This document shows positions 1 to 54,034 of a stretch of 64,000 bases of DNA, one piece after another. The position numbers and the translations under genes are program-made. Within the stretch, counting starts at the first letter, position 1. Every line of letters begins with the position of its first letter. The notes beneath the pieces were generated by a model that worked only from the letters and a program-made list of their open reading frames with translations, was not told the origin of the DNA and searched no databases. Origin of the DNA: an uncultured Candidatus Rokubacteria bacterium (GTDB lineage Bacteria > Methylomirabilota > Methylomirabilia > Rokubacteriales > CSP1-6); contig CAWJDX010000025.1 of assembly GCA_963841755.1 (NCBI GenBank), forward strand, positions 67,048 through 131,047. The letters are read 5' to 3'.

Positions 1-931
1 TGGCGGGCACGAAGGCCAGGCCTCGCGGCGCGTCGCCGTCGGTGAAGCGCGCCAGGCTGGTGCGCCCCCCGTCCGCGGTGAGGGCGAAGATCTCGGTGCC
101 CTGCCGGTCGGCCACGAAGAGCAGCCCGGCCGGGCCGGCCGCGAGGGCCTGCGCCATCGGGCCCTCGAGGACGAGGCGGGGCTCGCCGCGAGGGCTCACC
201 CGCCAGATCGCGCCGGGGCCTGCCTGCCACGGCGCCTCCGCGGCGCCGTCGCTGCCGACCCAGAGGTGATCCGATTCGTCCACCGCGAGCGCGCGGGGCC
301 GCGCCACCCGCACGTTGTCGAGCATCCGCCCGTCGCCGTCGAGGCGCAGCACGACGCCGCGGTCGCGGTCCGCGACGTAGATCTCGCCGGCCGCGCTCGC
401 CGCCGCGCCCTCCGGCTGGACCATCAGCGGCGCCCGCGCGGGCTCGGGCGGGGTGCCCCCGGCGAGGAAGCTGATCCGTCCGTCCGCTACGCGGTAGAGC
501 ACCCCCACCCGCCGATCGCGGTCGAAGGTGGTGACGAAGAGGTCGCGGCCCGCGCGGCCGGCGCTGACCTGGGCGTTGACCAGCGGCGGGCCGTGGAGGA
601 AGCGGGCCTCGGTCGCGGGCGTCAGGCGCGCCCCGCCCGGCGGGATGCGATAGAGCGAGGTGAGGTAGTCGAACTCGCCGCCGCTGTAGCGCCGGCCGGT
701 GCGCGCGAGGTAGAGGGCGCCGGTCGGGTCCACCGCGAGGGTGGAGGTCGACGGGATGCCGCGGCCGCGCGGCCCGCTGTCGCCGCCGAAGCCCTCGCCG
801 GTCACGTAGACGCGCGCGGTGAAGCCGGGCGGCAGCAGGATGTCGGCGGCGGCCGCGGCGGGGGAGAGCACTCCAGACAGGAGCGCCAGCCCCAGCCCGA
901 TGAGCTTCCGCGCCGTCCGCGTCGTGATCAT
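1..931 (-). CDS. secreted beta-propeller repeat protein (NHL/SGL-like); start inside window, 3' end runs off the left edge
   Basis: Own translation of the minus strand from ATG 931..929: MITTRTARKLIGLGLALLSGVLSPAAAAAD... (signal-peptide-like). It is stop-free with GC-rich third positions down to base 2. Recurrent strand motifs such as GEIYVADRDRGVVLRLDGDG and LLFVADRQGTEIFALTADG. It is absent from the ORF track, presumably because no stop lies inside the window. Confidence 0.6.
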   Translation of the reverse strand, partial: MITTRTARKLIGLGLALLSGVLSPAAAAADILLPPGFTARVYVTGEGFGGDSGPRGRGIPSTSTLAVDPTGALYLARTGRRYSGGEFDYLTSLYRIPPGGARLTPATEARFLHGPPLVNAQVSAGRAGRDLFVTTFDRDRRVGVLYRVADGRISFLAGGTPPEPARAPLMVQPEGAAASAAGEIYVADRDRGVVLRLDGDGRMLDNVRVARPRALAVDESDHLWVGSDGAAEAPWQAGPGAIWRVSPRGEPRLVLEGPMAQALAAGPAGLLFVADRQGTEIFALTADGGRTSLARFTDGDAPRGLAFVPA

Positions 932-983
932 CCGCCGAGATCATAGCCTCGGCGATCGGATGCGGCAACCGCGGGGGTCCGGA

Positions 984-1925
984 CTAGGGTGCGCGGTCCA
1001 CGATGAGGGCGGGCAGCGCCTCGAGCGGGAAGCCGGCGTCGATCCACGCCGTGAGCCCGCCGTGCAGCGGGTAGACCCAGCGGACCCCGCTCCGCTTGAG
1101 CTGGAGCGCCACCCGGGCGCTCGTGGCCTCGTTGGGTCAGGAGCAGTAGAGGACGACCTTCCGATCGAGGGGAATCTCGGCGCGGCGGCTCTCGATGACC
1201 TCGGCGGGGATCCAGAGGGCGCCGGGGATCTTGTGGGGGGCCGCGCCCACGTCGAGGGTCGAGCGGGTGTCGATCACGATCAGGTCGGGGTCGGCCGCGT
1301 CGAGGCGGCGCTTGAGCTCCGCCGGCTCGATCCGGGCCACCCGCAGGCTGCGCAGGAAGCGCCGGCGGCGGACGAACTTGACCACGACGTAGCCGGCGAG
1401 GGCCACCGCGCCGGCCGCGAGCCCCCAGTGGCCCACGCGCGCCCCCAGATCGAGCAGCGGGGCCAGCGCGTCGCTCGAGAGGTAGCCCAGGGTGATCCAC
1501 GTCCCGGCCCAGAGGAGGGCGCCCATGATGTCGAGCACGAGGAACGACGCCCGGCTGAGGCCGACGATGCCGGCCAGCGGCGGCGCGATGGTGCTGAGCC
1601 CGGGCAGGAACTTGGCGACGAGCAGGGCCCAGCGGCCGCGGGTCATGAACAGGTTCTCGGTGCGGCGGACGCACGAGTCCGGCTCGAGAGAGAGCCGACA
1701 GATGACGTCGAGGACCCGCTTGCCCCGTGCGCGCCCGAGCTCGTACCAGACGACGTCGGGGGGCAGGGAGGCGGCCAGCGCGGTGGCGAGGCCCGCGAGC
1801 GCGCTCATGCGGCCGGTGCCCGCGAAGGCCCCGACCCCCAGCAGCAGGGGGACCGCGGGGATCGGCAGGCCGATCTGCTCGGCGAGCACGAAGGCGAAGA
1901 GCATGAGGTAGCTGTCCATGGCCAC
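984..1925 (-). CDS. DedA-family membrane domain fused to a C-terminal rhodanese domain; candidate selenoprotein (in-frame UGA at 1139..1137)
   Basis: The ORF track entry 1137..1925 ends ...DRKVVLYCS. The TGA is followed in the same frame by PNEATSARVALQLKRSGVRWVYPLHGGLTAWIDAGFPLEALPALIVDRAP and then TAG (986..984). That stretch supplies the missing C-terminal half of the rhodanese fold. The N-terminal 190 aa are hydrophobic and DedA-like. Confidence 0.6.
1104..1122 (-). promoter_or_regulatory. SECIS-like stem-loop downstream of the rhodanese UGA
   Basis: Minus-strand RNA GAGCGCC-CGGGU-GGCGCUC forms a perfect 7-bp stem with a 5-nt loop containing GU. The stem starts 14 nt and the loop 22 nt after the UGA. 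Confidence 0.45.
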
Positions 1926-1933
1926 ATCCTAGC

Positions 1934-1961
1934 TTGACAGGGTCCCGGATCGCGCTATACG
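1934..1961 (+). promoter_or_regulatory. sigma70-like promoter candidate for the OsmC gene
   Basis: TTGACA (1934..1939), 16-nt spacer, TATACG (1956..1961). GGGAGGA lies 7 nt before the ATG at 1981. Confidence 0.35.
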
Positions 1962-1980
1962 GGAGCGGGAGGATCGCGAC

Positions 1981-2472
<492 letters not shown>

Positions 2473-2574: not shown

Positions 2575-4267
2575 ATGGAAGAAGAGCGCACCACGTTCGA
2601 GACCCTCGAAGCGGCCTTCGTCGAGGGACGGCTCACCCGGCGTGAGCTGCTTCGCCGCAGCGCCCTGATCGGGGCCAGCGCCGCCGCCGCGCACCTCCTC
2701 GGCTCGCTCGGGCTCGCCCGTCCGGCGCACGCGCAGGGGACCCCCAAGAAGGGCGGCACCCTCGTCATCGCCAAGGAGAGCGAGCTCGACATCCTCGACC
2801 CGCACAGCGCGGGCGGCTGGGTGACCTGGCGGGTCAGCAAGCAGATGCACGAGGGCCTGATCGACGAGGACCTCACCCAGGCCAACGTGCCCTACCCGAA
2901 GCTCGTCCCCAAGCTCGCGACCTCGTGGGACGTCTCCAAGGACTCGCTGACCTACACCTTCAAGCTCCGCAAGGGGGTCAAGTTCCACGACGGCACGAAC
3001 TTCGACGCGGCGGCGGTGAAGTACAACATCGACCGCTGCGCGGCCAAGGACTCGCCCCAGTTCTACGCGCGGGCCAACGCCTACACCACGTGGATCTGGC
3101 AGTTCCTCAAGGAGGTGAAGACCCCCGACGAGGGCACCGTGCAGATCGTCCTGCGCGAGCCCTACGGCGACTTCCTCCGCCAGCTCGTCCAGGGCGGCGG
3201 CGGCGCCGCGGTGTTCATCAGCCCCACCGCGCTCAAGAAGTACGGCAACGAGGGCATCGCCGAGCACCCGACCGGGACCGGGCCGTTCCGCTTCGTGGAG
3301 CGCGTGCGCGGCGAGAAGGTGGTCACCGAGCGCAACCCCAACTACTGGGGGACGCAGCCGTTCCTCGACCGGATCATCGACCGGCCGATGCCGGAGCCGG
3401 CCGCGCGCATGACCGCGCTGCAGGCCGGCGAGGTCGACATGATCTACGTGCCGCATCCCGACGGCATCGCGGAGCTCAAGACCAAGGGCTTCAAGCTCGA
3501 GCAGGGGCCGGCCCCCCACGTCTGGTACTTCGCGTTCAACCTCAAGGACAAGAACTACCAGGACGTGCGCGTGCGGCGGGCCATCAACATGGCCATCGAC
3601 CGCGAGGGCATGGCCAAGCAGCTCCTGAAGGGGACCGCGGTCGCCGCGCGCGGGCTGCAGGCGCCGTGCTGCCCGTCCTACGATCCGAACTTCAAGGACT
3701 ATCCCTACGACCCCGCGCAGGCCAAGAAGCTCCTCGCGGAGGCCGGCTTCCCGAACGGCTTCGAGACGGTGTGGCAGACGTCGGTCGACGGCAGCGGCCA
3801 GCTCATCCCGGTGCCGATGGCGGAGTGGATCCAGCGCGACCTCGCCAAGATCGGCATCCGGATGAAGCTGCGCACCTACGAGTGGATCACCTACATCGGC
3901 TACTGGATCAAGGGCATGGACGACGCCTCCAACAAGGTCGGCGGCCAGCAGATGAGCTGGGGGATGACGAGCGACTACTGGCTCGACATCGTCACCAACT
4001 CCTCGCACATCGCCCCCGCGGGCGGGGCGGGCCAGAACGGCGGCTACTACTCGGGCGCCGACGCGATGCTGAACGCGGCGCGCGGCGAGATGGACGAGAC
4101 CAAGCGCGCCGGCTCTCTACCGGAAGATCAACCAGAAGATCAAGGAAGACGCCCCCGCGGTGCCCATCATCAACGACCTCGCGCCGCTGATGCTGAGCCC
4201 CAAGGTGAGGGGCTTCGTCCACGCGCCGGAGGAGTGGTACGACATGACCACGGTCTGGCTCGCGTGA
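2575..4267 (+). CDS. ABC transporter substrate-binding protein, family 5 (peptide/nickel type), Tat signal; frame broken near 4110
   Basis: ATG 2575 is preceded by GGAGGAGGG. N-terminus MEEERTTFETLEAAFVEGRLTRRELLRRSALIGASAAAAHLLG. After ...DETKRA the listed frame turns into Pro/Arg/Gly-rich sequence unlike the family C-terminus. The +1 frame reads LYRKINQKIKEDAPAVPIINDLAPLMLSPKVRGFVHAPEEWYDMTTVWLA* (stop 4265..4267). Length is 1 mod 3. Confidence 0.85.
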
Positions 4268-40710: not shown

Positions 40711-41811
40711 ATGATCACGCTGCTCACGGATGCGGGGGAATTCGCGGTGGACGGGGCGGCTGCCTCGACGACGACGCTCTGGTGTCCCGCGCGCGACGCG
40801 GAGGCCGCCACGGGCTGGGTCGCCAAGCCGGAGGGGCTCTGCCGGGGGCCGGTCTGCGTGCCGCTGCCCGCGGGGCGCGAGCGCGAGTTCGTCGACGGTG
40901 GGCGCATCGACCTGGCCGCGCTCTGGCGCCACCTCGGTCAGCCCGCGATCCACGGCGACCGGGGCGACGCGTGGGTGCTCTCGCAGAGCGCGCGCGACCG
41001 CGCGGCGACGCTGGGCGCGCTGGAGGCGCCGGACTTCGCGCTGCCCGACGCGGCCGGCCGGCTGCACCGGCTCTCCGAGCATCGCGGGAAGAAGGTCCTG
41101 CTCGTCACCTGGGCGTCCTGGTGAGGGTGCCGTCGCGACCTGCCCGTGTGGCAGGCGCTCTACGAGGAGCTGGGCGATCGCGGCTTCGTGGTGATCGCGG
41201 TGGCGATGGACAGCCGCGAGGGCGATCCGCTGCCGTGGATCGAGGCGGCCCGGCCCACCTATCCGACCCTGATCGATCGCGACCATCGGCTCGCCGAGCT
41301 CTACGGCATCGTCAACGTGCCGCAGGCGGTGTGGATCGACGAGGCCGGCCGCATCGTGCGTCCCGCGGAGCCGGCCGGCGCCTATGAAGGCTTCCGCAAG
41401 ATGAACCGGGCGACGCGGGAGATGCCGGAGGACGTGGCGCGTCTCACCGCGCAGGCGAAGGCGACGTATCTCGACGCGATCCGCGACTGGGTGCGCCTCG
41501 GGCCGAAGAGCTCCCACGCCCTCACCGCGGCCCAGGCGCGCGAGCACCTGCCCACGCCGCGCGAGGACACCGCCCGGGCCCAGGCGATGTTCCGGCTCGG
41601 GCAGCTCCTGATCCGGCGGGGAGAGCGCGAGGAAGGCGAGCGGTGGATCCACGAGGCGAGCCGCCTGCACCCCGACTCCTGGTGCATCTGGCGCCAGGGG
41701 GCGGGGGTCAACGAGACGGGGCTGGCCGCGCTGCCCGAGTTCTGGCAGCGGGTCGACGCGCTCGGGGAGGCGCGCTACTACGCCCGGGTCGACATGCCCG
41801 GCATGCCCTAG
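40711..41811 (+). CDS. ResA/TlpA-like thioredoxin-fold protein with W-A-x-x-U-G-C motif; candidate selenoprotein (in-frame UGA 41122..41124)
   Basis: ORFs 40267..41124 and 41146..41811 share one frame. Read-through gives ...EHRGKKVLLVTWASW-U-GCRRDLPVWQALYEELGDRGFVVIAVAMDS...NVPQAVWIDEAGRIV.... The TGA therefore sits where ResA/TlpA proteins carry the first redox Cys. Confidence 0.65.
41135..41158 (+). promoter_or_regulatory. SECIS-like stem-loop downstream of the ResA-like UGA
   Basis: GCG-A-CCUGCC [CGUGU] GGCAGG-CGC: 9 bp with one bulged A and a 5-nt loop containing GU. The stem starts 10 nt and the loop 21 nt after the UGA. Confidence 0.45.
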
Positions 41812-51240: not shown

Positions 51241-51891
51241 CTACGAGTACTTGACGGTGCAGCCGTACGCGCGCGTGATCGGCGTCTTCACCGGCTGGCC
51301 CGCGCTCACCGACTCGAGGGCCGCGCGGACGTAGTTGCTGGCGCCCGGCACGTCGGCCCGCCGGGTGGTGGGCCGGTCGTCGATGGCGCCCGCGTAGATG
51401 AGGGTGCCCGCCTTGTCCACCACGTACATGTGCGGGGTGTTGGTGGCGCCGTACATGCGCCCGACCACGCCCGGCTCGTCGAGCAGCACCGCGGTGGGCG
51501 CCGCCTTGCGGCTCGTGGTCAGCTCGTCGGCCTGCGCGGCGGTCACGTAGCCCTGCTCGCCCTTGGCCGAGGAGATCAGGGTGAGCCAGACCACGCCCTG
51601 CCCGGTGGCCTCGCGCTGCAGCGCCTGCATGTTGCCGGTCTCGTAGTGCTTCCGCACGTAGGGGCACTCGTGGTTGGTCCACTCGAGCACCACGATCTTG
51701 CCCTTGTAGGACGCGAGGCTCACCGGGGAGCCGTTCGTGGCGTTGGCGGTGAAGGCGGGGGCGGCCTCGCCGACCTTCGCCTGCACCGCGGCGGAGGCGG
51801 CGCGCGGGCCGAGGGTGGTGGCGACACCGCCGACCAGGATGGCGGCACCGGTGCGGGTGAGGAAGCGGCGGCGGCTCAGTGACTCGGGCAT
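51241..51891 (-). CDS. periplasmic thioredoxin-fold (redoxin) protein, Tat signal, single CP motif
   Basis: ATG 51891. MPESLSRRRFLTRTGAAILVGG...KIVVLEWTNHECPYVRKHYETGNMQALQ.... Confidence 0.75.
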   Translation of the reverse strand: MPESLSRRRFLTRTGAAILVGGVATTLGPRAASAAVQAKVGEAAPAFTANATNGSPVSLASYKGKIVVLEWTNHECPYVRKHYETGNMQALQREATGQGVVWLTLISSAKGEQGYVTAAQADELTTSRKAAPTAVLLDEPGVVGRMYGATNTPHMYVVDKAGTLIYAGAIDDRPTTRRADVPGASNYVRAALESVSAGQPVKTPITRAYGCTVKYS

Positions 51892-51920
51892 CGGGTGGTC
51901 TCCTTTCGCTGACGTCGGGC

Positions 51921-54034
51921 TCAGAGCTTCCGGACGGCCTCGATGATGGTTCCCTCGCTCAGGATCTGCGGTAGCACGCGCGGCGGCGAGCTGCCGCCGC
52001 GGTAGAGCACGTAGAGCGGCACACCGCTCCGCCCGAAGGATTCGAGCAGCGCCGCGATCTCGGGGCTCTTGCTGGTCCAGTCGGCCTTGAGGTAGACGAC
52101 GCCCCGCCGGGCGAAGGCGTCGGTCACCGCGGGCGAGTGCAGCGCCACCCGCTCGTTCACGAGGCAGGTGATGCACCAGGCGGCGGTGAAGTTGACGAAG
52201 ACCGGCGTGCCCTGCGCGCGCAGCGCGGCCAGGCGCTCCGCCGTGAACGGCTCCCAGGCCGCGCCCGCGGGCGCGGCCGCGGCGGGCGCGGGCGACGGGC
52301 TCGTCGCCACCAGCGGGCCGAGGCCGAGCGCGCCGGCCACGCAGCCGAGCGCGAGCACGGTGGCCGCGCGACGCCAGCGCACGGAGGTGCCCGCGCGGGT
52401 GGCCTGGTGGAGCCACGCCGCGAAGCCGATCAGGAGCAGTCCGATCAGGACCAGCGCCACTCCGTCCGGCCCGGCCTGGCGGCTCGACCACCCACACGAG
52501 CCAGGCCACGGAGGCGTAGAGCGGGAAGGCGAGCGCCTGCTTGAGCCGCTCCATCCAGGGGCCCGGGCGGGGCAGCAGGCGCCGCCACGCGGGGACCAGG
52601 GAGAGCGCCAGGAATGGCAGGGCGAGGCCGAGCCCGAGGGCCTCGAAGACCAGCAGCGCGGTGGCCGGCGGCTGGGTGAGCGCGTAGCCCACCGCCACGC
52701 CCATGAACGGGGCGGTGCAGGGCGTCGCGGCCACCGCGGCCAGCGCGCCGGTGAAGAAGGAGCCCCGGTAGCCCGGGCGGGCCGCCAGCCCGTGGCCGAC
52801 GCCGGTCAGCCGGGTGCCGAGCACCAGGACGCCCGAGAGGCTCAGGCCGAGCGCGAAGAGCAGGTAGGCGAGCGCGCCCACGACCACCGGGGACTGGAGC
52901 TGGAAGCCCCAGCCGACCTCGGCCCCGCCCGCGCGCAGCGCGATCAGGGCACCGGCCAGCGCGGCGAACGAGACCAGCACGCCGGCCGTGTAGGCGAGCC
53001 CGTGGCGCCGCAGGACGGCCGACGAGGTCTGGGCATGGGAGACCAGGGCAATCGCCTTGACGGAAAGCACCGGTAGAACGCACGGCATGAGATTCAGGAT
53101 GAGCCCGCCGGCGAGGGCCAGGCCGATCGCGACCACGAGAGAGAGCCCCGCGCGGGCGGCGGAGGACTTCGGGGGCGGCGGTCGCCCGGATCGCGAAGGC
53201 CTGGGTCACCAGCCCCTGGTCCAGCCGCTCGCGCATCACCAGGACGCCGTCGAGATCGGTCGCGGGGCCGTCCGGCAGCGCGCCGCGGGCGATGCGCAGC
53301 GTGATGCCGCCCTCGTCGATGGTGACCGCCTGGGCCGCCGCGTGATCGATGACGCCCCAGCGGGCCGGGAAGAACCACACGTCCGAGATCCGGTCGGCGG
53401 CCAGGCGAGGGGCCGCGACCGACACGCGTCACGGTCTCGGGCGTCGCGCTCAGCGTCGCGGGCCACGGGCTCGGGGCCGGGACCGCGCGGCGGGCGCTGC
53501 TCGATGGCCGGCGCGGTCACCGCCGGGGCCGGACGGCCCGCGATGACCGGCAGGGTCAGCGCGACGTCGGCCTCCTCGGGGATGCAGGTCTTCTCGCACA
53601 CGAGCCACGAGGCCCGGCCGCGCAGCGTGACGCGGCTCCCGGGCTGGGCGTCGGCCGGCACGGTGACGCGGGTGAGCAGGACGACCTCCTTGGTGTAGCC
53701 GTAGCTCATCACCGGCCCCACCGGCAGCCGCTCGGGCCGCGGCCACACGATCGGCTCCGCGCCGAACCCGGTGGGAAGAGACCATTCGATGCTCGGCGCC
53801 TCGCCGGAGTCGCCCGGGTTGAGCCAGTAGGTGTGCCAGCCCGGGGCGATGCGCTGCCGGAGCCCCACCCAGAGCGGAGAGCCCGGCTCGATGGACGCGC
53901 CCTCGCTGATCAGCGCCACCGAGACCTTGGGCGGGTCCGGCGGGGGGAGGGCCACCGGCGCGCGGCGGGGCGGCGAGCGCGGGTCCGGCCAGGAACCCGA
54001 CCAGGAGCGCGGCGGCGAGCAGGCGAATCGCCAT
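51921..54034 (-). CDS. DsbD/ScsB-like thiol:disulfide interchange protein (N-terminal domain + DsbD TM core + C-terminal thioredoxin); about five frame breaks
   Basis: ATG 54034: MAIRLLAAALLVGFLAGPALA. The pieces join across 53236..53955 (...WHTYWLNPGDSG...WLVCEKTCIPE), 52445..53425, 51241..53136 (...GGLILNLMPCVLPVLS...ATPCTAPFMG) and 51921..52460 (...FTAAWCITCLVNE...). Breaks are near 53958, 53480, 53430, 53140-53200 and 52488. Length is 2 mod 3. Confidence 0.75.

What the first reader, a model, noticed from the sequence alone, without database searches (positions are those of the whole stretch)
984..1925. DedA-rhodanese fusion with Cys-Ser-UGA in the rhodanese active-site loop and a matching SECIS-like hairpin
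- **Truncated call:** the annotated ORF stops at ...VVLYCS-TGA, in the middle of the rhodanese domain.
- **Continuation:** the same frame continues for 50 codons (PNEATSARVALQLKRSGVRWVYPLHGGLTAWIDAGFPLE...). This is exactly the missing helix/strand part of a rhodanese fold, ending at TAG 986..984.
- **Motif:** as I remember related DedA-rhodanese proteins, they read C-x-C-P-N-E-A at this place. The UGA would then replace the second Cys, giving a C-S-U selenenylsulfide-capable motif.
- **Hairpin:** on the mRNA a perfect hairpin GAGCGCC[CGGGU]GGCGCUC (1122..1104) places its loop 22 nt after the UGA.
- **Parallel:** the second candidate at 41122 has almost the same distance and the same CGNGU loop pattern. 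Two independent occurrences of the same architecture in one window argue against chance nonsense mutations.
Basis: partly seen in the sequence, partly recalled or inferred. Interest (0 to 1): 0.75.

Follow-up and report, generated by a model that had tools for sequence, protein, structure and literature searches.

The report
Selenocysteine-containing DedA–rhodanese membrane protein gene
The apparent premature stop in this membrane-protein gene almost certainly encodes selenocysteine, so this is a real but routinely mis-annotated selenoprotein: a known kind of selenium-containing rhodanese domain fused to a DedA membrane domain.

Summary
The minus-strand ORF ends ...VVLYCS-TGA (1139..1137). The same frame then runs 50 more codons to TAG 986..984. 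A perfect 7-bp hairpin (1122..1104, loop CGGGU) starts its loop 21 nt after the UGA.

Comparative data show the UGA is a selenocysteine codon:
- In 80 species-level genomes, 44 carry TGA and 36 carry TGC/TGT at this column.
- None of the 44 has a stop in the next 39 codons, and the coding pattern continues past the TGA.
- The stem AGCGCC/GGCGCU is fixed even at synonymous sites in TGA genes only, and it meets the published bacterial SECIS model.
- A second gene in the window, at 41122, belongs to the known WAxxUGC selenoprotein family and has the same type of hairpin.

The rhodanese C-x-U selenoprotein type is already catalogued (NCBIfam NF041203, LYCAU). DedA–rhodanese fusions are also known, in Cys form and with unknown function. 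I found no description of a Sec-containing fusion. Public records truncate it to "DedA family protein".

The DedA domain lacks three of the four charged residues that are essential in E. coli YghB. It has two invariant cysteines of its own, so I infer a cytoplasm-facing Cys/Sec redox or chalcogen-transfer site. This is a new variant of a known kind, of moderate interest.

The parts
984..1919 (-). Full selenoprotein coding sequence: 260 aa, then Sec, then 50 aa, then TAG. This assumes the start is ATG 1919..1917; an alternative start is GTG 1925..1923.
   Evidence: Searches give the sequence. Most close homologues start MDSYL, and AGGA at 1930..1927 lies 7 nt upstream of the ATG. The coding signature continues after the TGA, and none of 44 orthologues has a stop within 39 codons.
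1479..1862 (-). DedA / VTT membrane domain (residues 22-149, numbered from the GTG start).
   Evidence: Pfam PF09335 scores 42.3 bits against a cut-off of 33.9. Alignment to E. coli YghB: E39 is kept, D51 becomes V, R130 becomes K105 and R136 becomes S111.
1671..1700 (-). Family-specific motif C76-R-L-S-L-E-P-D-S-C85 with two invariant cysteines (TGT 1700..1698, TGC 1673..1671). It lies in a positively charged, presumably cytoplasmic, loop of the DedA domain.
   Evidence: The cysteines are invariant in alignment A1, conserved in the sequences shown of A2, and absent from YghB. The cytoplasmic location is inferred from the positive-inside rule.
1038..1325 (-). Rhodanese domain (residues 201-296), interrupted by the UGA.
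   Evidence: Pfam PF00581 scores 42.3 bits against a cut-off of 22.2. The best NCBIfam match is NF041203 rhodanese_LYCAU at 88.4 bits. PDB rhodaneses are matched by sequence and by fold.
1143..1145 (-). Cys261 (TGC), at the canonical rhodanese catalytic position: the first residue of the active-site loop C-S-U-P-N-E.
   Evidence: In the AF2 model of the Cys homologue P0097, the strand is 264-268, the loop is C269-E274 and the helix starts at 275. The residue is nearly invariant.
1137..1139 (-). In-frame UGA read as selenocysteine (U263), two residues after Cys261.
   Evidence: TGA in 44 and TGC/TGT in 36 of 80 species-level genomes at this column. 118 of the 120 nearest database proteins end at LYC[ST].
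1104..1122 (-). SECIS hairpin: stem GAGCGCC/GGCGCUC and loop CGGGU (1115..1111). There are 21 nt between the UGA and the loop.
   Evidence: MFE -12.1 kcal/mol. RNAalifold consensus of 7 pairs. The core stem is fully paired in 40 of 42 TGA genes and 7 of 36 Cys genes. Entropy at synonymous sites is 0-0.16 bits in TGA genes and 1.1-1.66 bits in Cys genes.
984..986 (-). True stop codon, TAG.
   Evidence: A sigma-70-like promoter match for the next gene (968..940) follows directly.

Best explanation
This is an intact selenoprotein gene of a Methylomirabilota (Rokubacteria) bacterium.

Shown or strongly supported:
- UGA 1139..1137 is decoded as selenocysteine.
- The hairpin 21 nt downstream has all the features of a bacterial SECIS element, the structure that SelB with Sec-tRNA binds. 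The binding itself is inferred.
- The product is about 311 aa: an N-terminal DedA/VTT membrane domain, a basic linker, and a C-terminal rhodanese domain whose active-site loop reads C-S-U-P-N-E.
- The family hallmark is C-x-[C/U]-P. About one third of sequence clusters use Sec at that position and the rest use Cys.

Inferred:
- Cys261 is the canonical rhodanese nucleophile. Sec263 sits two residues further along the same loop, close enough to form a selenenylsulfide with it or to accept a sulfur or selenium atom from it.
- The loop is acidic rather than cationic. The domain therefore more likely acts as a Cys/Sec redox or chalcogen-relay centre than as a classical thiosulfate sulfurtransferase.
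- The positive-inside rule places the rhodanese domain on the cytoplasmic face. The two invariant cysteines of the DedA domain (C76, C85) lie on the same face, so the four residues could form a relay.
- The DedA domain lacks three of the four charged residues that are essential in the E. coli homologue YghB. Its cargo is therefore probably not handled in the canonical way. I propose it couples membrane passage or handling of a sulfur- or selenium-containing or otherwise redox-active substrate to the C-x-U site. This last step is speculative.
For: Sec decoding:
- Cys/Sec pair in 80 species genomes across Methylomirabilota, Acidobacteriota and Dormibacterota (TGA) and Nitrospirota (Cys).
- 118 of the 120 nearest proteins are truncated at LYC[ST], and one full-length Cys form reads LYCSCPDE.
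- Among 150 representatives of 50%-identity clusters, 78 read C-x-C and at least 43 are truncated at ..C-x.
- The coding signature after the TGA (entropy by codon position 0.75/0.74/1.53) matches that upstream (0.76/0.46/1.37). None of 44 orthologues has a stop within 39 codons.

SECIS:
- Stem third-codon positions are invariant in TGA genes only.
- 40 of 42 TGA genes have an intact stem, against 7 of 36 Cys genes.
- The loop is C-G-[G/U]-G-[U/C], or A-G-[G/U]-C-U. It fits the published consensus N1-G-[G|U]-N-N2, the 16-37 nt spacing and MFE <= -7.5 kcal/mol.

Sec use by this organism:
- A WAxxUGC-family gene at 41122 scores 295 bits with Cys standing in for Sec, and has the same type of hairpin.
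- Methylomirabilota are reported as exceptionally rich in selenoproteins (PMC13188914).

Structure and domains:
- AF2 model of a 58%-identical Cys homologue, mean pLDDT 88.9.
- YghB alignment.
- Best family match is NF041203, 'rhodanese-related (seleno)protein' LYCAU.
Against: - No tRNA-Sec was found in the 64-kb window, and none of the nine further ORFs scanned against NCBIfam matched a selA, selB or selD family. Many ORFs of the window were not scanned. Sec machinery is therefore only inferred for this genome.
- The core stem does not vary, so it offers no covariation. Only the seventh pair covaries, and it is broken in 16 of 42 sequences.
- The encoded peptide S-A-R-V-A-L itself predisposes to the stem (8% by chance).
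- Which residue is the catalytic one is ambiguous. phmmer against PDB 6mxv aligns the U, not Cys261, with the catalytic Cys. One orthologue (L002) reads LYYS-UGA, without the first Cys.
- No gene neighbour is conserved across the family to support any particular substrate.
- The functional model rests on domain logic alone.
Confidence: 0.9

Rival explanations
1. The TGA is a nonsense mutation, an assembly error or a base-call error, so the gene is a pseudogene or is mis-sequenced.
For: Gene callers stop here, and every public record of the TGA forms is a truncated 'DedA family protein'.
Against: The same TGA is present at the same column in 44 independent species-level assemblies from several phyla. 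The downstream frame is open and under purifying selection in all of them. The column aligns with Cys in 36 others.
Confidence: 0.02
2. The UGA is a genuine terminator. The cell makes a DedA protein with a C-terminal half-rhodanese stub, and the downstream 50 codons are conserved for another reason, for example an RNA element or a separately translated peptide.
For: No Sec machinery is visible in the window. The hairpin could in principle be a regulatory or attenuator structure.
Against: A rhodanese fold cut after its central strand would lack the active-site loop and two helices. The downstream codons show the codon-position pattern of protein coding and complete the rhodanese domain, as in Cys homologues. 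There is no start codon or RBS logic for a separate peptide. No terminator-like site was found.
Confidence: 0.03
3. Same selenoprotein, different chemistry. Sec263 itself is the catalytic rhodanese residue (loop U-P-N-E-A-T, canonical C-X4-[R/T] length) and Cys261 is an auxiliary or resolving residue.
For: phmmer aligns the U column with the catalytic Cys of PDB 6mxv and T/S-A with R-S-A. Orthologue L002 keeps U but has Tyr in place of the first Cys. The C/U column is conserved in more than 90% of the family representatives that cover the motif.
Against: The AF2 model puts the first Cys directly after the central strand, with a six-residue loop before the helix, as in canonical rhodaneses. MAFFT and the 1yt8 alignment pair the first Cys with the catalytic Cys. 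Relatives with C-A-E-P, C-A-S-P and C-T-E-P keep only the first Cys.
Confidence: 0.3
4. The DedA domain is an ordinary undecaprenyl-phosphate flippase of the COG0586 subfamily, and the Sec-rhodanese domain only regulates it, for example by sensing redox state.
For: DedA-rhodanese fusions are assigned to COG0586, whose members are proposed UndP flippases. PAP2 fusions in the same subfamily fit that role (PMC10127716). E39 and a basic residue at the R130 position are retained.
Against: D51 becomes V. R136 becomes an invariant Ser. R130 and R136 are the residues proposed to bind the phosphate of UndP (PMC10127716). Scores against the NCBIfam DedA and UptA models are far below their cut-offs: 33.9 against 236 and 30 against 300. 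The authors themselves call the rhodanese connection to UndP unclear.
Confidence: 0.2

Closest known systems
NCBIfam NF041203 'rhodanese_LYCAU', rhodanese-related (seleno)protein. [quoted passage not shown]
   Same: Rhodanese fold with the motif L-Y-C-x-U and Sec two residues after the conserved Cys. It is the best-scoring NCBIfam family, covering model positions 17-124 of 126. Its function is equally unknown.
   Different: The score of 88.4 bits is below the curated cut-off of 115. The known family is a stand-alone domain of about 126 aa. Here the domain is the C-terminal part of a 311-aa membrane protein with a DedA domain. The spacer residue is S or T rather than A.
Cys-type DedA-rhodanese fusions of DedA subfamily COG0586, for example P. 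aeruginosa PA1209 (PMC10127716, PMC12893004), and the Nitrospira proteins annotated 'DedA family protein/thiosulfate sulfurtransferase GlpE'.
   Same: Same two-domain architecture. The Nitrospira and other Cys forms are clear orthologues (47-57% identity) that read C-x-C-P-N-E where this gene reads C-x-U-P-N-E.
   Different: Those proteins carry Cys, not Sec. None is described as a selenoprotein. I could not check whether PA1209 itself has the C-x-C motif.
Bacterial SECIS elements (consensus model of Zhang and Gladyshev, as summarised in PMC13188914).
   Same: A stem-loop inside the coding region directly after the UGA, with a 5-nt loop, G at loop position 2 followed by G or U, a 7-bp stem, 21-nt spacing and MFE of -12 kcal/mol.
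   Different: There is no sequence similarity to the E. coli fdhF element. The loop consensus here is C-G-[G/U]-G-[U/C]. It is shared with the unrelated WAxxUGC gene in the same window, which suggests a lineage-typical loop.
E. coli YghB/YqjA and B. subtilis UptA (DedA-family proteins proposed to be undecaprenyl-phosphate flippases).
   Same: VTT/DedA domain with the first re-entrant-helix glutamate (E39) and the P-x-x-P and A-G motifs conserved.
   Different: Only 26-30% identity. D51, R130 and R136 are replaced by V, K and S. There is an extra C-x8-C loop and a rhodanese extension.

Membership tests
Bacterial selenoprotein gene (Sec-UGA plus SECIS) | In-frame UGA aligned with Cys in non-selenoprotein homologues (a Cys/Sec pair) | tested here: met
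   36 TGC/TGT against 44 TGA at the same column. Full-length Cys forms P0097, P0214 and others.
Bacterial selenoprotein gene (Sec-UGA plus SECIS) | UGA-containing orthologues in other organisms, with a conserved open frame downstream | tested here: met
   44 species-level genomes. None has a stop within 39 codons. The codon-position entropy pattern is maintained.
Bacterial selenoprotein gene (Sec-UGA plus SECIS) | bSECIS model: 3-9 nt loop, 4-16 bp stem, G in the first two loop positions, 16-37 nt from the UGA, MFE <= -7.5 kcal/mol | tested here: met
   Loop CGGGU (5 nt), 7-bp stem, 21 nt spacing, -12.1 kcal/mol. The stem is conserved at synonymous sites in TGA genes only.
Bacterial selenoprotein gene (Sec-UGA plus SECIS) | selA, selB, selD and tRNA-Sec present in the same genome | not testable with these tools
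   No tRNA gene in the window and no sel gene among the ORFs scanned. The rest of the genome is not available. Indirect support comes from a second gene in the window that matches a known selenoprotein family and from the literature on Methylomirabilota.
Bacterial selenoprotein gene (Sec-UGA plus SECIS) | Selenium physically incorporated at the UGA position | not testable with these tools
   This needs 75Se labelling or mass spectrometry.
NCBIfam NF041203 rhodanese_LYCAU | Whole-protein score at or above the curated cut-off (115 bits) | tested here: not met
   88.4 bits, E = 2.8e-25, with Cys substituted for Sec.
NCBIfam NF041203 rhodanese_LYCAU | L-Y-C-x-U motif in the rhodanese active-site loop | tested here: met
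   The window reads L-Y-C-S-U. Orthologues read L-Y-C-[ST]-U.
Rhodanese domain (Pfam PF00581), catalytically active type | Domain score above the gathering threshold, and Cys as first residue of the six-residue loop after the central strand | tested here: met
   42.3 bits against 22.2. In the AF2 model of a homologue, Cys directly follows strand 264-268. The residue-level assignment is contested by one phmmer alignment.
Rhodanese domain (Pfam PF00581), catalytically active type | Cationic active-site loop, as in thiosulfate sulfurtransferases (for example CRxGxR; this feature is recalled from my own knowledge) | tested here: not met
   The loop is C-S-U-P-N-E, with no basic residue and one acidic residue.
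DedA COG0586 / UndP flippase (YghB, YqjA, UptA) | VTT/DedA domain present | tested here: met
   PF09335 scores 42.3 bits against 33.9.
DedA COG0586 / UndP flippase (YghB, YqjA, UptA) | Membrane-embedded charged residues. R130 and R136 are reported as essential (PMC10127716). E39 and D51 are recalled from my own knowledge. | tested here: not met
   E39 is kept, D51 becomes V, R130 becomes K105 and R136 becomes S111. The K and S are invariant in the family.
DedA COG0586 / UndP flippase (YghB, YqjA, UptA) | NCBIfam equivalog cut-offs for DedA (236 bits) or UptA (300 and 250 bits) | tested here: not met
   33.9, 30 and 20.6 bits.

The most novel reading that the evidence does not exclude
The DedA-rhodanese C-x-U proteins would be the first selenoenzymes within the DedA/VTT membrane-protein superfamily. 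In this reading, a four-residue cytoplasmic Cys/Sec relay (C76, C85, C261, U263) captures or reduces a sulfur- or selenium-containing substrate as the DedA domain moves it across or along the membrane. Candidate substrates are selenite, thiosulfate or polysulfide. This would give a biochemical basis to the old genetic link between DedA and selenite uptake (Ledgham et al. 2005, cited in PMC10127716). It would also explain what the unexplained rhodanese fusions of DedA proteins are for.
Probability: 0.2. Interest if true: 0.65.

Novelty: new variant of a known kind. Interest (0 to 1): 0.42.

Why it matters
- Annotation: a widespread gene family of soil and groundwater bacteria (Methylomirabilota, Acidobacteriota, Dormibacterota) is systematically truncated in public databases. 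About one third of its sequence clusters are Sec forms. All the named records I looked up are called 'DedA family protein' or similar.
- Biology: use of Sec marks the C-x-[C/U] position as catalytically redox-active. This is the first concrete clue to the function of DedA-rhodanese fusions, whose role DedA specialists call unclear. It also argues that this DedA subgroup is not a standard UndP flippase.
- Method: the invariant hairpin, whose loop type is shared with an unrelated selenoprotein gene in the same window, gives a usable lineage-specific SECIS signature for finding more selenoproteins in these phyla.

Tried and rejected
- Rfam at gathering thresholds found nothing in the window, and ARAGORN found no tRNA, so no tRNA-Sec.
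- Mononucleotide-shuffle z-scores of a 45-nt downstream segment were uninformative, because GC-rich sequence folds anyway. I replaced them with synonymous-site entropy and synonymous resampling.
- The protein search with the rhodanese domain alone returned only 21 hits, because of the word prefilter. I recovered full-length Cys forms by searching with P0097 instead.
I modelled the 58%-identical Cys homologue P0097 instead.
- Foldseek against the PDB listed only entries matched through their rhodanese domains among its top 50.
- Neighbourhood analysis: the OsmC, NHL-repeat and peptide ABC-transporter neighbours are conserved only in the closest relatives. No partner is conserved across the family.
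- Nine further window ORFs were scanned for sel genes and none was found.
- A window-wide scan for other in-frame TGA codons with coding flanks and a CG[GU]G[UC]-loop hairpin found only this site and 41122.
- Literature: no paper in the library contains DedA, rhodanese and selenoprotein together. Haft and Tolstoy 2025 (PMC12013261) is not held. Deng et al. 2026, the groundwater MAG selenoproteome study cited in the review, did not turn up in a full-text search. Prior description there cannot be excluded.
Full report
**Observation.** The minus strand between 1925 and 984 carries one reading frame.
- It opens at GTG 1925. More probably it opens at ATG 1919, which has AGGA seven nucleotides upstream and matches the MDSYL start of most homologues.
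- It reads ...DRKVVLYCS and then meets TGA at 1139..1137.
- It continues without a stop for 50 codons (PNEATSARVALQLKRSGVRWVYPLHGGLTAWIDAGFPLEALPALIVDRAP) to TAG 986..984.
- With Cys placed at the TGA, Pfam finds a DedA/VTT domain (residues 22-149) and a rhodanese domain (residues 201-296). The TGA therefore sits inside the rhodanese domain.
- The hairpin GAGCGCC-CGGGU-GGCGCUC lies at 1122..1104. Twenty-one nucleotides separate the UGA from the loop, and the MFE is -12.1 kcal/mol.

**Is the UGA a selenocysteine codon?**

*Database proteins.* Of the 120 nearest proteins in a 5.8-billion-sequence database (63-98% identity), 118 end at exactly this point with [LIV][LIV][LV]YC[ST]. One full-length relative reads LYCSCPDEVTSARAAL.

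*Species genomes.* A scan of one genome per prokaryotic species returned 80 loci. At the column of the window's TGA, 44 carry TGA and 36 carry TGC or TGT.
- TGA forms come from Methylomirabilota/Rokubacteria, Acidobacteriota (Terriglobia, Bryobacteraceae, Acidoferrum) and Dormibacterota.
- Cys forms come mainly from Nitrospirota.

*Downstream frame.*
- None of the 44 TGA loci has a stop within the next 39 codons.
- The peptide PNEA.SAR.AL.L.R.G..RVRPL.GG...W is conserved.
- Nucleotide entropy by codon position after the hairpin (0.75/0.74/1.53 bits) matches that upstream of the TGA (0.76/0.46/1.37).

*Wider family.* Among the best 150 representatives of 50%-identity clusters in a 1.8-billion-protein library, 78 read C-x-C-P and at least 43 stop at ..C-x.

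A nonsense mutation, a sequencing error or a true terminator cannot produce this pattern.

**The hairpin.** Taken alone it is weak evidence. If the encoded peptide is kept and codons are redrawn from local usage, a 6-bp stem appears in 8% of draws and a 7-bp stem in 4%. The comparison between gene types is what counts.
- In TGA genes the third-codon positions inside the stem have 0-0.16 bits of entropy. The same positions in Cys genes have 1.1-1.66 bits. Flanking third positions in TGA genes have 1.0-1.9 bits.
- The six core pairs AGCGCC/GGCGCU are all formed in 40 of 42 TGA genes and in 7 of 36 Cys genes.
- The loop reads C-G-[G/U]-G-[U/C], or A-G-[G/U]-C-U in two Acidobacteria.
- The published bacterial SECIS model asks for a 3-9 nt loop, a 4-16 bp stem, G in the first two loop positions (usually followed by G or U), 16-37 nt spacing and MFE <= -7.5 kcal/mol (PMC13188914). 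All four criteria are met.
- Because the core never varies, only the seventh pair can covary: GC 15, CG 7, other standard pairs 4, broken 16 of 42.
- Two Cys-form loci with the PNEATSA peptide typical of the Sec forms (L073, L032) keep remnants of the hairpin. This looks like recent Sec-to-Cys replacement.

**Does this organism use Sec?**
- The window holds no tRNA gene, and none of the ORFs I scanned is selA, selB or selD.
Gene 40711..41811 (+) has an in-frame TGA at 41122 in the motif W-A-S-W-U-G-C. With Cys standing in for Sec it scores 295 bits against NCBIfam NF041054, 'ResA-like WAxxUGC motif-containing protein' (cut-off 300).
- That gene's hairpin CCUGCC-CGUGU-GGCAGG starts its loop 20 nt after the UGA.
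- A scan of the whole window for in-frame TGA with coding-like flanks and such a hairpin finds these two sites and nothing else of the same type.
- The closest loci are Methylomirabilota MAGs at 85-87% protein identity. A 2026 review reports a MAG of this phylum with 63 predicted selenoprotein genes.

**What the protein is.**

*Rhodanese domain.*
- The best NCBIfam match is NF041203, 'rhodanese_LYCAU, rhodanese-related (seleno)protein', at 88.4 bits, below its cut-off of 115.
- The selenoprotein catalogues list this type as a rhodanese form with a CxU motif.
- An AlphaFold2 model of the 58%-identical Cys homologue P0097 (mean pLDDT 88.9) places the first Cys directly after the central strand. 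It is followed by a six-residue loop (C-S-C-P-D-E) and then a helix. This is the canonical position of the rhodanese catalytic Cys, so Sec lies at loop position +2.
- This assignment is not certain. A phmmer alignment to PDB 6mxv puts the U on the catalytic Cys. One orthologue (L002) reads L-Y-Y-S-U. A few relatives keep only the first Cys.
- The loop has no basic residue, unlike thiosulfate sulfurtransferases (that comparison is from my own knowledge).

*DedA domain.* It aligns with E. coli YghB at 26-30% identity.
- Of the four membrane-embedded charged residues of YghB, E39 is kept, D51 becomes Val, R130 becomes Lys and R136 becomes Ser. The Lys and Ser are invariant in the family.
- R130 and R136 are reported as essential and are thought to bind the phosphate of undecaprenyl phosphate (PMC10127716). 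E39 and D51 as essential residues I recall from my own knowledge.
- The family has its own invariant motif, C-R-x-S-L-E-P-D-S-C (C76, C85), which YghB lacks.
- The positive-inside rule places this basic loop and the basic linker before the rhodanese domain (KFVRRRRFLRSLR) in the cytoplasm. This placement is an inference.

**How it most likely works.**
- Shown: UGA recoding directed by a conserved hairpin with all the features of a bacterial SECIS. The product is a membrane-anchored rhodanese domain with a C-x-U active-site loop.
- Inferred: Cys261 and Sec263 form a selenenylsulfide or persulfide/perselenide relay on the cytoplasmic face, possibly extended by C76 and C85. A DedA domain that has lost the phosphate-binding arginines handles a different, probably chalcogen-containing or redox-active, substrate.
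- No conserved gene neighbour narrows the substrate. The OsmC-like, NHL-repeat and peptide ABC-transporter neighbours are shared only with the closest relatives.
- DedA specialists note that DedA-rhodanese fusions exist (for example PA1209) and that their link to undecaprenyl phosphate is unclear.

**Novelty.**
- The C-x-U rhodanese selenoprotein type, bacterial SECIS elements, DedA-rhodanese fusions and the richness of Methylomirabilota in selenoproteins are all known.
- I could not find any description of the Sec-containing DedA-rhodanese fusion. The two selenoprotein catalogues I searched do not mention DedA, and the 2026 one does not mention PF09335, VTT or SNARE either.
- NCBIfam has no model that fits the full-length protein.
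- The public records I looked up name the TGA forms as truncated DedA proteins.
- Two relevant papers could not be read, so prior listing is not excluded.

I rate it a new variant of a known kind. It is a correct and useful catch with moderate interest, and the functional lead is more interesting than the recoding itself.

Noticed in passing
window 40711..41811 (+), TGA at 41122..41124, hairpin about 41142..41158: A second selenoprotein gene. It is an AhpC/TSA-fold protein with the motif W-A-S-W-U-G-C. It scores 295 bits against NCBIfam NF041054, 'ResA-like WAxxUGC motif-containing protein' (cut-off 300, with Cys substituted for Sec). Its SECIS-like hairpin CCUGCC-CGUGU-GGCAGG lies 20 nt after the UGA and has the same loop type as the DedA-rhodanese gene.
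   Followed up: partly
window 51241..53136 (-): A 631-aa ORF combining a DsbD-like membrane domain (it matches the DsbD-like part of the selenoprotein TsoB model, 67 bits) with a C-terminal ResA-like thioredoxin-fold domain. This is another thiol-redox membrane protein in the same window. I did not check it for recoding.
   Followed up: no
locus L002 (Methylomirabilia MAG JBGQHJ010000083.1), TGA at 2631: This orthologue reads V-V-L-Y-Y-S-UGA. The otherwise nearly invariant first Cys of the C-x-U motif is Tyr (TAC for TGC), while the UGA and hairpin are intact. It is either a sequencing or population variant, or a hint that Sec can work without the neighbouring Cys.
   Followed up: no
loci L073 (TGT at 3769) and L032 (TGC at 1441): These Cys-form genes from Acidobacteria MAGs keep the Sec-type peptide PNEATSA and remnants of the SECIS stem. 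L073 has an intact stem with the loop changed to CACGU. L032 has an intact loop with one stem mismatch. This suggests recent Sec-to-Cys conversions.
   Followed up: partly
window 1671..1700 (-): An invariant C-R-x-S-L-E-P-D-S-C motif (C76, C85) lies inside the DedA domain. It is present in both Sec and Cys forms of the family and absent from E. coli YghB. It may be a second redox pair facing the rhodanese domain.
   Followed up: partly
window 1981..2472 (+): An OsmC-like protein gene (Pfam PF02566) is transcribed divergently from the selenoprotein gene. OsmC-like proteins are themselves a known selenoprotein family elsewhere, but this copy has Cys. The pairing is conserved only in the four closest Methylomirabilota loci.
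   Followed up: partly
window 940..968 (-): This is the only sigma-70-like promoter match in 700..2300 (TTGCCG-17-TATGAT; 0.0 expected in shuffles). It lies between the true stop TAG 984 and the ATG (931) of the downstream NHL-repeat protein gene. This fits an intergenic region that begins after the extended ORF, not after the TGA.
   Followed up: no
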